Shown here one piece after another: positions 3,901-57,900 of a stretch of DNA of 64,000 bases. Position numbers and translations under genes: made by a program. Origin of the DNA: Octopus sinensis (lineage: Eukaryota); NCBI RefSeq assembly GCF_006345805.1, contig NC_043005.1, positions 49,414,001 to 49,478,000 on the forward strand, given 5' to 3'. Every line of letters begins with the position of its first letter. Position 1 is the first letter of the stretch. The notes under the pieces were generated by a model. It searched no databases. It was not told the origin of the DNA and was given only the letters and a program-made list of their open reading frames with translations.

Positions 3901-6900
3901 TCCTGTTGCGGGGAACACATACGCAACAGAAACTGGGAAACCAGGCCCATGAGCCTGGTTAGGCTTGAAAAGGGCGACATTTATCATTATATATATATAT
4001 ATATATATATATATATATGATTGTGTGTGTGTGTATGTGTTTATGGATAGATGAATATATTTACACATTGATGCAGTGCATGTGTGGACCTTGTTTTGGC
4101 ATAAGTATATGTACATACAAGGTTTGTAAATCTATACGAGTGTGCATACACCAATTATAGGTTAAGGTTCTGGAATATCCTACATATTTTTTATATGTGT
4201 GAATGTATACATGCATGTAAGATTATATACATTGCATACATATGTATTTATCCGCATGTGTATGTATGAATGTATGTACGTATACAAGCATATGTATGTA
4301 TGCATGTCAGTATGTATGTATGAATATATGTATGTGCATGAATGCACATACCTCTGGCTACAAATATGCAGTTATTATACAAATTCAAAGCAACATAACC
4401 TGATTGTCAAAATGTTATTGTTTGTCAGAAAAGACTGTCAATGAATGCCTGACGCCAGTTGAGCTGGGGTGAATCATCAGCAATAAACTTCAAAACTTCA
4501 ATGATACTGTCTTGGGTAAACAAGGCCTAGATATTTTACACACACACTCACACATACACACATGAACGCACACACGCACACACACACACACACACACACA
4601 CACACACACATATGTATACATATCATCATCAACATCATTTAATGTTTGCTTTTCATGCTAGCATACTTGTATAAGCATACATGTATAAACATACATGTAT
4701 AAACATATATATAGAGAGAGCATATTACTCTACCTCCGGTATTCAAGTACTATTTTTTCCACTTTGTTTCGCATTTATGTGCATACTCAGGTATAAATGC
4801 ACACACACACACACGCACACACACACACACACACACACACACACACACACACACAAACACACACACACATACACACATACACACACACATGTATATATAA
4901 TATAAAAGGATAAAATTGTTAAAAATGTTATTAGTGGGCAGTATATAAAAATATACCCCAATTAAAGTGAAATCATAAATACAATTATGATTAAAGGCAT
5001 AGAAAAAATTTCTTACCTATATGCTGAAAGGAGTTGCTAAATTGTCAAACCACATTAAATATTATGACTATTATGTAATAATAATAGTGATGATATTTAA
5101 TGTGGTTCGATGATTTAGTATCTCCTTTCAGCATATAGGCAAGAAATTTTTCTATGTCCTGAATTATAATCATATATATATATATATACTGGAGTAAGCA
5201 CATAAATGTGAAACAAGGTGGAAAAAAGAGTCCGACGAACAGGAACGTGAAACTCCAAGTAACAGCTTTTGTTATATTTCTGCTGCTATTAATAAAGTGT
5301 GTATATATATATATATATATATATATATATATTATATATATATATATATATATATATATATATGTATGTATGTATGTATATTACATATATATTTACATAC
5401 ACACACACACACACACACACTCACATATATATATGCATATATATGCACATACTTATAAATATATAACTTTATATACACACAAACACTCATGTATATGTAC
5501 GTGTGTGTATCTATCTATCTATCTATCTATCTATCTATCTATATATATATATATAGAGAGAGAGAGGGAGATAGATAGATACACACACATACATATATAT
5601 GTATGCGTGTGTGTTTGTTTTATGTTTGTGTGTTAGTGCATGGGTGTCCATGTGTGTGTGTGTGTGTGTGTGCATGCACATGTGCATGCTCTTTTCTTTG
5701 TGCACAGATATTTACTACATCCTGTCTTTTTGAATAACTTGAATGTCTCAAGCAGGTCACTTGAATGGCAGGATATCACAATTCTTAACCTATTTCAAAA
5801 TGGTAATCACTGAATTAACATTGAAATTTGTACTTGTTCTCGGTCATAGTGAGCACACTAGGTACACATGCTTTCTAAAGAATCAAATCACATACAAAAG
5901 TTCCCTTTAGAACTGAATAACAATCTTTATTTCTCTTTTCTTCTGCCTTTCCTTTCAATTAATCTTTCTCTGAAGGAATTTTTGCTGTCTATAAGTATAA
6001 AAGTTTTATTTTAAAGGCTTCTAATATTGCTACACCTCTTATGTGTCAGTAGCTTACTCTGGGTACATCTTAGGGAGTGTCACTTTGTGACACTTTGAAG
6101 AACAAATTATTGGTGTATTAGGCATTTTTGTTCTTGAGCCTCAAGACTCATAAGATTGGTTGCCCTGTGACTGAGATCATCTCATTTCCGTGAACAGGAC
6201 ACCAGTCCATTGCATAGTGCAAGGCCAGCAATATTTGAGGGAGAGGACAAGCTGATTACCTCAGTCCCAGTATTCGACTGGTACCTTATTTTATCACCCC
6301 ACAAAGACAGTTTACCTCATTATAATTTGAACTCAGAATGTAGAGAGCTGGAAGAAATGCTACTAAGCATTTTGTCTGATGTGCTAATGATTCTGGACCA
6401 TAGGACATTGATGACTATTTTTCTCTGTTCTTGACTCTGGGATGTCCTCTTCCAGGTCTTGTTGATTTTTAATTGTCAGTGATGCTTCCATAACTTGGCA
6501 TTTTTCTTAGTAAGGATGTTGGCTGAATGCAATCCCCTTTTTACTTCTAAGAAGAGGTGGTCCATATTAGTCTGGCTTCTATCTTTTGATCTGTCCAGTA
6601 TATGAGGCCCTATCAGGATATTATGCTCTGCTAGTATAGCACTCAGGGTCAACCAAAATACACAAGCCACCACATCACAACAAACAGTGGATCTTGTGGT
6701 GGCTTGAGATAGAGCAGGCTTCTATAAAGCAACTGGGAGTTAGGAGGTGGTATTAAATAGGATTACAGATTCGATTTACTATTGAAGAATGAGCAAAATC
6801 TATCCACACAATTTTTGCCTACCCAGCTACATTCTTGTGGTGTGTTTGATTCAAGGCTGTGGTTGAAAATCAATTCCCCAGTTACAACCCAAATTAGAAA

Positions 6901-54900: not shown

Positions 54901-57900
54901 TATATATATATATATATGTATATATATATATATAGAGACAAGTACAGGAAAAATACCAATAGAAGTATAACTCCTCCTTAGTTGTTAATTGTTTATCACT
55001 ACTTGTTTCATGCTTTTAATGACAAGACAGGAAAACTTCACAAGACAGCAGCATCCAGAAATTTTAAAAATATAAAATTTGTGGAGAGTTAAGGCTTCAA
55101 ACAAACAAACAACACCAGAGTGGATGTACAGAAATGATTGATGAAGACAGACATTTAGGGCTGTTAGGCCAAGATGAATTGTAATGAGTAACACCTGGGA
55201 GAAATTTTGAAAGGATATAGAATAAATTGAAGTGAAAAAAGCTATCGAGAGACAAGGAAATGACGTCCGGCTAGCTATATATATATATATATAATATACA
55301 TATATATATATACATATATATATATACATATATACATATATACATATATATATACATATATATATATATATATATAATATATATATACATATATATATAT
55401 ATACATATATATATATAATATACATATATATATACTATATATACATATAATATATACATATATATATATACATATATATATACATATATATATATACATA
55501 TATATATATACATATATACATATATATATATACATATATATATACATATATATATACATATATATATATACATATATACATATTATATATATATATATAT
55601 ATACATTATACATATATATATATATATATACATATATACATAATATATATACATATATATATACATATATATATACATATATATATTATACATATATATA
55701 TATACATATATATAATACATATATATATACATATACATATATACATATATATATATATAATATATTATATATATATATAATATACATATATATAATACAT
55801 ATATATATATATATTACATATATATATATACATATATATATTATATACATATATAATAGTTATCGCCATACTAATATGGCATTCTTATAAAAATAAGAAA
55901 AAAGCTGTCCGCTTATTAGCTCCATGAGGCCATCGCCTTAAGTTAGCTATTTGATACACAAACTGTATCCATATAACCTTCGAACAAGGGAGGTCAGTCG
56001 CTCCACACTACTTTAGAGAGACTTAGTTATTTTAATATTTCTATTATTGAAAACAAGTGGATGTATTCCACCGAAACTAGGTAAATAAAACCATCGAACA
56101 GAGATTGTCGGAAGCGACACCTACTGGCTGGCTACGCTGCATTGAAAAGGGGCAATACTCCGAAACGCGTCTGTAGCTGCCGGTCAAGTAGTGTGGAGCG
56201 ACTGACCTCCCTTGTTCGAAGGTATATGGATACAGTTTGTGTATCAAATAGCTAACTTAAGGCGATGGCCTCATGGAGCTAATAAGCGGACAGCTTTTTT
56301 CTTATTTTTATAAGAATGCCATATTAGTATGGCGATAACTATTATTTTCCGGGAACGCTGCCGCTGTTCTCTTTTAGAGAGACTTAGTTATTTTAATATT
56401 TCTATTATTGAAAACAAGTGGATGTATTCCACCGAAACTAGGTAAATAAAACCATCGAACAGAGATTGTCGGAAGCGACACCTACTGGCTGGCTACACTG
56501 CATTGAAAAGGGGCAATACTCCGAAATGCGTCTGTAGCTGCCGGTCAAGTAGTGTGGAGCGACTGACCTCCCTTGTTCGAAGGTTATATGGATACAGTTT
56601 GTGTATCAAATAGCTAACTTAAGGCGATGGCCTCATGGAGCTAATAAGCGGACAGCTTTTTTCTTATTTTTATAAGAATGCCATATTAGTATGGCGATAA
56701 CTATTATATATGTATATATATATATATGTATATATATATATGTATATATGTATATGTATATATGTATATGTATATATATATGTATATATATATATGTATA
56801 TATATATATGTATATATGTATATATTATATGTATATATGTATATGTATATATTATATGTATATATATATATGTATATATAATGTATATATATATATGTAT
56901 ATATGTATATATATATATATATGTTATATATGTATATATATATATGTATATATATATATGTATATATGTATATATATATATGTATATATATATATGTATA
57001 TATATAGTATATATATATGTATTATATATGTATATATATATGTATATATGTATATATATATATGTATATATTATATGTATATATATATGTATATATATAT
57101 ATGTATATATGTATATATTATATATATATATATGTATATATGTATATATATATATGTATATATATATATGTATATATATATATGTATATATATATATGTA
57201 TATATTTATATATATATGTATATATGTATATATATATATATATGTATATATATATATATGTATATATATATATATATATATATATATATATAGCTAGCCG
57301 GACGTCATTTCCCTTGTCTCTCGATAGCTTTTTTCACTTCAATTTATTCTATATCCTTTCAAAATTTCTCCCAGGTGTTACTCATTACAATTCATCTTGG
57401 CCTAACAGCCCTAAATGTCTGTCTTCATCAATCATTTCTGTACATCCACTCTGGTGTTGTTTGTTTGTTTGAAGCCTTAACTCTCCACAAATTTTATATT
57501 TTTAAAATTTCTGGATGCTGCTGTCTTGTGAAGTTTTCCTGTCTTGTCATTAAAAGCATGAAACAAGTAGTGATAAACAATTAACAACTAAGGAGGAGTT
57601 ATACTTCTATTGGTATTTTTCCTGTACTTGTCTCTAGTTGTGTGTTTATGTATTTTTTGCTCATTGGTGTATTTTTTCATTTTTATTTATGCATATTTAT
57701 TCATATATGCATAAAATAAAATAATATTACCATACATATGATACGTACATATCTTGGCATGACTTTATTTCTGTTTTTGCTAAGTTTTCAAGTAAGACAG
57801 AACCTAGTTCATTTGATGAATCTATAAACAGAACCAATCTATTACAATAAGCACTTAAAAGTTGGTAAAGAGGTAATCTTTTATTCTGCATGGTTTGAGA

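What the first reader, a model, noticed from the sequence alone, without database searches (positions are those of the whole stretch)
4719..57636. A (TA)n-associated Penelope / hammerhead-retrozyme system concentrated in one gene's introns
Seen: about ten hammerhead or hammerhead-derived motifs from at least five unrelated sequence families (5229, 7982, 14055, 17446, 23902, 24261, 37396, 39675, 56136, 56497). Most lie in elements inside or beside (TA)n tracts, alongside one nearly intact Penelope-like RT/GIY-YIG element that is itself bounded by (TA)n. Established: Penelope-like elements carry minimal type I HHRs in their pLTRs, non-LTR retrozymes are tandem HHR repeats that yield small circular RNAs, and some Penelope clades favour microsatellites. 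Inference: this cephalopod genome hosts several non-autonomous HHR RNA families mobilised in trans into (TA)n by such an enzyme. I cannot verify whether these families are already catalogued.
Basis: partly seen in the sequence, partly recalled or inferred. Interest (0 to 1): 0.85.

Follow-up and report, generated by a model that had tools for sequence, protein, structure and literature searches.

The report
Retrozymes bearing Penelope-type insertion scars
The self-cutting-RNA (hammerhead) motifs are real, but most are leftover ends of ordinary Penelope-like jumping genes; two belong to young non-coding repeat families whose insertion ends carry the Penelope signature, so a Penelope enzyme likely copies them, probably from small RNA circles.

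Summary
The other six are decayed or truncated.

They are not one system, and they are not concentrated here: sampled genomic DNA holds 1.8 per 64 kb and as many (TA)n tracts. Four of the eight families are 3' ends of Penelope-like elements (PLEs) that encode their own enzyme; one is untraced.

Two families are young, non-coding non-LTR retrozymes (361-bp and 546-bp units, arrays up to about 9 units). A third, older 331-bp family was missed. Their 3' ends abut (TA)n (74 of 84) and fall at two fixed sites. Two-armed insertions use one of each (28 of 30). This is the 'tail' signature reported as unique to PLE reverse transcription. The 361-bp lineage's hammerhead covaries across subfamilies (2,117 genomic matches).

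No partner PLE was identified; cleavage, circles and expression are untested. This is a known kind (Cervera 2014, 2020; Craig 2021; Frangieh 2024; Li 2026). The scan noted similar end patterns on other genomes. New members, with unusually direct support for PLE-driven retrozyme mobility.

The parts
55853..56707 (+). Family E insertion: 361-bp non-coding retrozyme unit, two direct units (56013-56373, 56374-56707) and an inverted 161-bp arm (55853-56013). Hammerhead cores at 56142 and 56503 (U3-A8 core, 6-bp helix I, 4-bp helix II, palindromic helix III).
54933..55852 (-). Inverted duplicate of the right flank 56708-57636 (about 580 bp of TA-rich microsatellite plus 344 bp of an older unrelated repeat). 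The 344-bp parts are identical but for one indel. Secondary fold-back or assembly artefact; not part of family E.
7811..8403 (-). Family B insertion: one 546-bp non-coding unit plus 47 bp of the next, ending in (TA)n. Hammerhead 8057-7982 with a long helix II region.
27529..27945 (-).
13891..17173 (-). 5'-truncated, frameshifted copy of a young Neptune-like PLE (RT, CX4CX2C linker, GIY-YIG with CCHH). Its 3' pLTR holds a minimal hammerhead (core 14094, C at position 4) and ends in (TA)n.
17241..17493 (-). Family F: 3' pLTR remnant of an older sister subfamily (82.6% over 259 nt to the 3' end of L195, whose RT is 71% identical to the window's). The young PLE sits in its (TA)n tail.
5188..5301 (+). 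Family A: inverted tail arm joined to a direct arm cut inside the hammerhead; 3' end of a PLE with a Hydra-type endonuclease; between two (TA)n tracts.
39647..39743 (-). Family A, second copy (core 39713), same two-arm build, flanked by TA runs.
4720..4792 (+). Family A tail only, no hammerhead.
8559..8618 (-). Family A, two very short arms with no hammerhead, between (TA)n tracts.
23853..24345 (.). Family C: inverted pair (23853-24004 minus, 24196-24345 plus) of decayed 3' ends of an old PLE; both cores mutated; no adjacent (TA)n.
37350..37445 (+). Family D: decayed minimal hammerhead (core 37400, G at position 17) of an old heterogeneous family; parent not identified.
21105..60067 (+). Host gene: exons of a myosin VII-type MyTH4-FERM tail (21105-21311, 22444-22797, 24701-25114, 37950-38108, 42646-42993; weak match at 59750-60067).

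Best explanation
The window holds two kinds of thing: four hammerhead families are truncated 3' ends of Penelope-like elements that encode their own enzyme, and two young families (a third older one probably too) are non-coding tandem retrozyme units that a Penelope-type enzyme likely copies in trans into (TA)n, probably from circular RNA. Shown: unit sizes, tandem arrays, no long ORF, conserved and covarying hammerhead fold, 3' ends at two fixed sites followed by (TA)n, 5' truncation, inverted arms with one short and one long end, arrays mostly of one haplotype. Inferred steps: (1) an array is transcribed; (2) paired hammerheads cut through their palindromic helix III, and the monomer is ligated to a circle (about 0.55 that the circle is the template); (3) a (TA)n-targeting PLE protein, most likely of the Neptune-like or Hydra-like families present, binds the RNA and cuts both strands of a (TA)n tract; (4) the two target ends prime reverse transcription internally, one at each of the two start sites, mostly on one RNA; (5) each cDNA runs for a fraction of a unit up to several units, and the two are joined at their truncated ends.
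For: Families traced to coding sequence: A runs into an endonuclease with CxCX5C, CxxC and CxH in L067, L069, L072, the Hydra signature of PMC8557442 section 11; C runs into RT thumb and endonuclease in L158, L160; F matches the 3' end of L195. Family E: listed copies 97-100% identical, arrays of 8-9 units, longest ORF in a trimer 38 aa. In 30 E loci, 25 loci of an older subfamily and 20 loci of further subfamilies, no shared sequence lies upstream of the unit. Family B: 546 bp, mostly 95-98% identical, arrays to 7 units, longest ORF 74 aa. Fold: 26 E-lineage motifs, 92.3% of cells paired against 29-46% for slid controls, 6 pairs changed on both sides, core invariant but for position 7 and one copy. 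The E pattern has 2,117 genomic matches and 0 for the reversed control; helix III occurs as three different palindromes and position 7 as A, C or T. Circular folds z = -5.5 (E) and -4.9 (B). Ends followed by 5 or more TA: E 35 of 42, B 39 of 42, A 61 of 71, against 3-5% of random positions and 21 of 68 and 19 of 88 SINE ends. Two-arm insertions with one short and one long end: E 13 of 14, B 15 of 16 (p = 4e-7 against 0.5), 4 of 4 long arrays, 8 of 8 in other E subfamilies. PMC11167929 shows in vitro that this tail is the stretch between two internal RT start sites, that both strands are cut and extended, and calls the signature unique to PLEs. Haplotypes: 22 of 23 multi-unit E loci carry one allele at a 44:35 site, both arms agree in 12 of 12; B differs 0.009 per site within and 0.026 between loci. 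Candidate drivers exist: the window's PLE family has copies 96-99% identical with open frames of 775-777 aa.
Against: No partner: neither unit matches any of 20 PLE loci of about six subfamilies, whereas 24 of 57 Xenopus retrozyme families matched annotated elements, 21 of the 22 being PLEs. One-haplotype arrays also follow from transcripts of a homogeneous source array. In B, 2 of 7 two-arm loci have arms of different haplotype (L128, L150). The covariation comes from few events (two main subfamilies), and two of its five measures do not exceed shuffles. B's helix II has a mismatch at its base and its local minimum-energy fold is not the hammerhead. In the one PLE tested, hammerhead cleavage was not needed for insertion in vitro, and 8 of 9 Xenopus dimers did not cleave. 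The window's own E insertion is one of the two exceptions to the short/long rule. SINE ends are also TA-enriched 5- to 9-fold, so part of the TA signal is not specific.
Confidence: 0.72

Rival explanations
1. E and B are moved by a PLE enzyme, but from linear multimeric read-through transcripts of existing arrays; circles are a by-product or absent.
For: PAc inserts from unprocessed RNA and needs no hammerhead cleavage in vitro. Arrays of up to 9 units exist as sources. Some substitutions are shared by only part of an array, and one E locus and two B loci mix haplotypes.
Against: The hammerhead is conserved with compensatory changes across subfamilies down to about 71% identity, which implies that cutting matters. 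B arrays share locus-specific changes in 7 of 7, 3 of 3 and 2 of 2 units. Circles were shown for coral, mussel and axolotl retrozymes. This rival differs from the best reading only in the template step.
Confidence: 0.3
2. E and B are pLTR fragments of autonomous PLEs that I did not sample, amplified in cis as truncated partial tandems.
For: Four other families here proved to be such remnants. Genome searches score only the best 40 candidates, which favours whole-unit matches.
Against: Units join head to tail in exact register for up to 9 copies with no spacer. In 75 E-lineage loci and 30 B loci none shows shared upstream sequence beyond the unit, whereas family A showed coding sequence in 3 of 30 loci.
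Confidence: 0.08
3. E and B are satellite-like DNA spread by DNA-level events (unequal exchange, extrachromosomal circles), with a relic ribozyme.
For: Tandem organisation and within-array homogeneity. Li et al. discuss local tandem growth by DNA mechanisms.
Against: Fixed 3' ends, variable 5' ends, inverted arms with the short/long rule, and (TA)n junctions on many chromosomes mark target-primed reverse transcription.
Confidence: 0.05
4. One reading: all motif families are non-autonomous RNAs mobilised by the window's PLE family, and they are concentrated in this gene.
For: 5 strict hits against 1.8 expected per 64 kb. The young PLE family targets (TA)n.
Against: Four families have their own coding elements. 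The excess is at most 3-fold in a pre-selected window, and (TA)n density is average.
Confidence: 0.03

Closest known systems
Animal non-LTR retrozymes (Cervera and de la Pena 2020, PMC7229834; Li, Clavereau and Pollet 2026, bioRxiv 10.64898/2026.07.22.740005)
   Same: Non-coding tandem units (331, 361, 546 bp; reported range 150-450 bp, 51-972 bp in Li et al.), GC under 50%, one type I hammerhead per unit, self-paired circular fold, co-existence with autonomous PLEs; mussel units are 350-390 bp.
   Different: E joins a canonical-sized fold to a U3-A8 core; B has a long helix II region. No pLTR homology to a resident PLE was found. The PLE link here rests on insertion ends (two start sites, short/long arms, (TA)n), which I did not see reported in the parts of either paper that I read. 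Circles and cleavage are not shown here.
Minimal hammerheads in pLTRs of EN+ PLEs (Cervera and de la Pena 2014, PMC4209133)
   Same: Thousands per genome, mostly solo truncated copies, some as close inverted pairs; palindromic helix III; the U3-A8 core variant is described there.
   Different: Two families here carry C at position 4; I could not read the paper on such variants, so whether it is catalogued is unchecked.
Neptune and Hydra clades of PLEs (Craig et al. 2021, PMC8557442)
   Same: RT with DKG, C-terminal GIY-YIG, CX2-5CxxC linker and CCHH (window element); CxCX5C without CCHH (family A's parent); (TA)n targets; pLTR, inverted 5'-truncated arm, tail at one end.
   Different: Clades were assigned by motif only, with no tree. 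Tails of the non-coding families (63 nt in E, 112 nt in B) and of A (about 70 nt) exceed the 30-40 bp described.
Poseidon_Ac (PAc) internal initiation (Frangieh et al. 2024, PMC11167929)
   Same: Two internal RT start sites define the tail; both strands are cut and extended; in three autonomous families here the second site lies in a hairpin loop.
   Different: PAc starts in an AC-rich stem-loop not homologous to the target; here both sites are short TA-like tracts that could pair with a nicked (TA)n target. PAc showed no strand preference of start site in vitro; here opposite arms nearly always use different sites.

Membership tests
Non-LTR retrozyme (E, B) | Tandem repeat with at least two consecutive units carrying a complete type I hammerhead | tested here: met
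   E arrays of 8-9 units, B arrays of up to 7
Non-LTR retrozyme (E, B) | Non-coding, no LTR, unit of a few hundred bp, GC under 50% | tested here: met
   Longest Met-ORF 38 and 74 aa; GC 0.416 and 0.392; PBS and PPT were not searched
Non-LTR retrozyme (E, B) | Hammerhead fold supported by covariation | tested here: met
   Met for the E lineage; for B only position 7 varies freely and copies are too alike to test
Non-LTR retrozyme (E, B) | Highly self-paired predicted circle | tested here: met
   z = -5.5 and -4.9 against 60 shuffles each, about 62% paired
Non-LTR retrozyme (E, B) | Self-cleavage and accumulation of circular RNA | not testable with these tools
   Needs in vitro cleavage and RNase R northern blots
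Non-LTR retrozyme (G) | Tandem non-coding units with complete hammerheads | tested here: inconclusive
   331-bp register and partial tandems in 15 of 15 loci, longest ORF 35 aa, but copies are 74-81% alike and a complete core was picked up in only 4 of 15
PLE-mobilised element (E, B) | Two fixed 3' ends (tail), 5' truncation, inverted arm with the tail on one side | tested here: met
   28 of 30 two-arm loci, 4 of 4, 8 of 8
PLE-mobilised element (E, B) | Homology to the pLTR of a resident autonomous PLE | tested here: inconclusive
   None among 20 PLE loci sampled; the genome holds many more families than were sampled
Neptune clade PLE (13891-17173) | RT with DKG and C-terminal GIY-YIG carrying CCHH, CX2-5CxxC linker | tested here: met
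   Pfam RVT_1 and GIY-YIG; motifs read
Neptune clade PLE (13891-17173) | Placement in an RT phylogeny with reference Neptune and Nematis elements | not tested
   No reference set was fetched; Nematis is not excluded
Hydra clade PLE (family A parent) | Endonuclease without CCHH, with CxCX5C linker and CxxC, CxH motifs | tested here: met
   Three-frame translations of L067, L069, L072 against PMC8557442 section 11
Hydra clade PLE (family A parent) | RT with RWK and DKT motifs | tested here: inconclusive
   The longest copy found is truncated before the RT

The most novel reading that the evidence does not exclude
Animal retrozymes are inserted by twin priming: a dimeric PLE protein cuts both strands of (TA)n, and the two ends prime at two different TA-like sites on one small circular RNA, which writes ready-made inverted multi-unit arrays. 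Families E and B, with a co-resident young Neptune-like PLE, would be the first retrozyme-enzyme pair that can be rebuilt in vitro.
Probability: 0.4. Interest if true: 0.7.

Novelty: new member of a known kind. Interest (0 to 1): 0.42.

Why it matters
Which enzyme moves animal retrozymes is still open: PLEs are called 'a strong candidate' (PMC7229834), and the support is co-occurrence and pLTR phylogeny in vertebrates (Li et al. 2026). Here young retrozyme insertions carry the two-start-site tail reported as unique to PLE reverse transcription, and they name the exact RNA positions where initiation should map. An in vitro PLE assay exists (PMC11167929), so the question becomes directly testable. 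The short/long arm rule and the shared haplotype of both arms also constrain how PLEs finish an insertion. The cluster in this gene has no special meaning.

Tried and rejected
Rfam scan: no hammerhead among 138 matches; most of the rest are microsatellite artefacts.

Expression: no RNA holder listed for the 361-bp unit. Contigs of four runs guessed to be RNA cover parts of it but cannot show transcription, ends or circles; I draw nothing from them.

Partner search: E and B units against 20 PLE loci and 200 loci in all gave only an older E relative. Protein searches of 25 and 20 E-lineage loci gave two weak fragments 1-1.5 kb away (L259, L363), not joined to the unit.

The 344-bp arm was first taken for part of E, or for a transduction. 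It is absent from 29 of 29 other E loci and belongs to an older repeat family.

One search used wrong coordinates and returned a SINE family; those loci served as background.

Family A's 15 of 15 mixed arm pairs were not counted as evidence: the query was itself such a pair, and two loci were counted twice. One E pair (L093) is a small secondary fragment; without it the count is 27 of 29, p = 8e-7.

Family-level density comparison with random DNA was rejected as circular, since the queries came from the window.

Upstream host exons: no Pfam match among the frames tested upstream of 21105 but one spurious hit; three frames tested against solved structures gave none.

An RNA-editing signature in copies: only a weak strand bias.
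Full report
OBSERVATION. The window is G000:C9:49414001-49478000 in a 2.72-Gb assembly. All ten named places hold hammerhead-like sequence, a few to 70 nt from the coordinates given. Rfam finds none. My strict type I descriptor (core C3-G8 or U3 variant, helix II of 3 bp or more, short palindromic helix III, helix I of 4 bp or more) gives 5 hits, at 8051-, 14094-, 27662-, 56142+ and 56503+. 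Forty local dinucleotide shuffles give a mean of 0.225, maximum 1. The motifs fall into eight families.

NOT CONCENTRATED. Sixty evenly spaced 10-kb stretches hold 17 strict hits in 599.8 kb, or 1.8 per 64 kb. P of 5 or more is 0.037, weak for a window picked for this feature. (TA)6+ tracts number 75 per 64 kb there and 77 here. The host gene has myosin VII-type MyTH4 and FERM exons from 21105 on; no exon was confirmed upstream of that.

FOUR FAMILIES ARE ENDS OF CODING ELEMENTS. The PLE at 13891-17173 (minus) has RT and GIY-YIG matches, a CX4CX2C linker and CCHH, and one frameshift. It is 5'-truncated: other copies continue into a long upstream frame and an upstream pLTR. The family is young, with many copies 96-99% identical and open frames of 775-777 aa. 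The 17483 motif is the 3' end of a sister subfamily (82.6% over 259 nt to L195, RT 71% identical). Family A (5232, 39713, and fragments at 4720 and 8559) extends over 1.4 kb upstream and, in 3 of 30 loci, into an endonuclease with CxCX5C, CxxC and CxH. That is the Hydra signature, a clade reported to insert into (TA)n. Family C (23935, 24265) extends into an RT thumb and endonuclease. Family D (37400) has 10 weak matches, itself included, and no traced parent. Such solo remnants are the usual state of PLE hammerheads.

TWO YOUNG FAMILIES ARE RETROZYMES. E is a 361-bp unit with listed copies 97-100% identical and arrays of 8-9 units. B is a 546-bp unit, mostly 95-98% identical, with arrays to 7 units. 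Longest Met-ORFs in trimers are 38 and 74 aa. Circular folds score z = -5.5 and -4.9. No shared sequence lies upstream of the unit in 30 E loci, 25 and 20 loci of older E subfamilies, or 30 B loci. G (27529-27945) is an older 331-bp tandem unit of probably the same kind. The E lineage spans subfamilies from 99% down to about 71% identity with the same unit length and the same two ends. One pattern for its hammerhead has 2,117 genomic matches and 0 for the reversed control; in the 100 listed, helix III appears as three different palindromes and position 7 as A, C or T. In 26 aligned motifs, 92.3% of cells pair (slid controls 29-46%) and 6 of 20 pairs change on both sides, while the core holds. 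These changes stem from few events, and two of the five measures do not beat shuffles.

INSERTION ENDS. 3' ends fall at two fixed sites per family: unit 333 or +35 of the next unit in E, +47 or +159 in B. They lie 174 and 237 nt (E) and 177 and 289 nt (B) downstream of the predicted cut, so neither fixed end is the ribozyme site. Five or more TA follow within 24 nt at 35 of 42 E ends, 39 of 42 B ends and 61 of 71 A ends, against 3-5% of random positions and 21 of 68 and 19 of 88 SINE ends. Where an insertion has two outward-facing arms, one ends short and one long in 13 of 14 E and 15 of 16 B loci (p = 4e-7), 4 of 4 long arrays and 8 of 8 loci of other E subfamilies, two of which look like one duplicated locus. 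The two exceptions, this window's E insertion and L123, both have their flank duplicated in inverted form, which points to a later fold-back or an assembly artefact. In three autonomous families the same two-site build is seen: the tail lies just upstream of the start codon in full-length copies, both sites are short TA-like tracts, and the second sits in the loop of a predicted hairpin.

TEMPLATE. At a site split 44:35, 22 of 23 multi-unit E loci carry one allele, and both arms agree in 12 of 12 (chance about 3e-4, my arithmetic). B units differ by 0.009 per site within loci and 0.026 between. Both arms share a haplotype in 5 of 7 B loci, and not in L128 and L150. This fits repeated copying of one circular monomer, but also transcripts of a homogeneous array.

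MECHANISM. Most likely, array transcripts are cut by paired hammerheads and circularised. A (TA)n-targeting PLE protein then binds the RNA and cuts both strands of a (TA)n tract; the two ends prime at the two start sites; and the truncated cDNAs are joined. The end structure is shown; cleavage, circles and the identity of the enzyme are inferred. No partner was found among 20 PLE loci.

WHAT IS KNOWN. Cervera and de la Pena 2014 (PMC4209133; parts 1-2 of 4 read): minimal hammerheads in pLTRs, solo copies, U3-A8 variant. Cervera and de la Pena 2020 (PMC7229834; parts 2-4 of 6): non-LTR retrozymes, circles in coral, mussel and axolotl, PLEs as candidate drivers. Li et al. 2026 (bioRxiv; parts 1-3 of 5): co-occurrence and pLTR homology, mainly vertebrates. 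Craig et al. 2021 (PMC8557442; passages and section 11): clades, (TA)n bias, inverted arm, one-sided tail. Frangieh et al. 2024 (PMC11167929; parts 1-3 of 4): tail equals the stretch between two internal start sites. PMC3846280 (passages): tail on one inverted pLTR, pLTRs sufficient in trans. PMC13282606 (passages): an octopus repeat annotation that lists Penelope-like families and has no mention of ribozyme or retrozyme in its main text; its supplements were not seen and may hold these units. One paper on hammerhead variants, recalled, was not held. Nine literature searches listed no paper on cephalopod retrozymes or on the tail signature in retrozymes; the library lacks most subscription journals, and Dfam and Repbase could not be checked. 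Earlier notes of this scan report the same end pattern for tRNA-bearing tandem units in other genomes (untested here).

VERDICT. A correct catch of real ribozyme motifs, over-read as one locally concentrated system. Most are ordinary PLE debris. Two young retrozyme families are new members of a known kind, and their ends give testable support for PLE-driven mobility. Interest 0.42.

Noticed in passing
window 54933-57636: About 930 bp of flank (microsatellite plus an older repeat) is duplicated in inverted form around the E insertion, the unique parts identical but for one indel. L123/L124 show the same build. Real fold-back or assembly artefact.
   Followed up: partly
L200, L192, L187 (5' ends of full-length PLE copies): Three Neptune-like families of unrelated non-coding sequence share one layout: hammerhead, TA-like tract, hairpin of 8-10 bp whose loop holds a second TA-like tract, then the start codon. 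The two tracts are the two 3' junction sites.
   Followed up: partly
L197, L198, L200: The young PLE has a long upstream reading frame rich in coiled-coil-like sequence; the frame break to the RT part lies at or near an A-run in these copies. A programmed frameshift or assembly indels; not resolved.
   Followed up: no
L280, L284, L290, L322, L326: Several other hammerhead families in randomly sampled DNA have very long helix II regions (40-60 nt), so family B's is not unique here.
   Followed up: no
E and B copies: Substitutions lean to C>T over G>A (0.25 vs 0.10 per base in E, 0.27 vs 0.15 in B) and A>G over T>C on the ribozyme strand; the PLE shows the opposite lean. Small counts; could reflect deamination of the RNA or cDNA.
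   Followed up: partly
family B unit positions 325 and 327: Two nearby positions switch together between two states within single arrays (L134, L145, L340, L344). Recurrent change or a systematic sequencing effect.
   Followed up: no
L010 upstream flank: A different upstream sequence with its own hammerhead-like core joins the same 3' end as family A, suggesting several subfamilies share that end.
   Followed up: no
window 58172-58678 (+): Fragment of a LINE-type element with a zf-RVT domain (Pfam E 7.6e-7), unrelated to the finding.
   Followed up: no
window 17876-18205 and 18820-19146: A 330-bp inverted repeat pair (86.6% alike) around simple repeats; not examined.
   Followed up: no
L211-L235; many window copies: An abundant young SINE family whose ends also lie beside TA runs more often than chance (21 of 68, 19 of 88).
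   Followed up: partly
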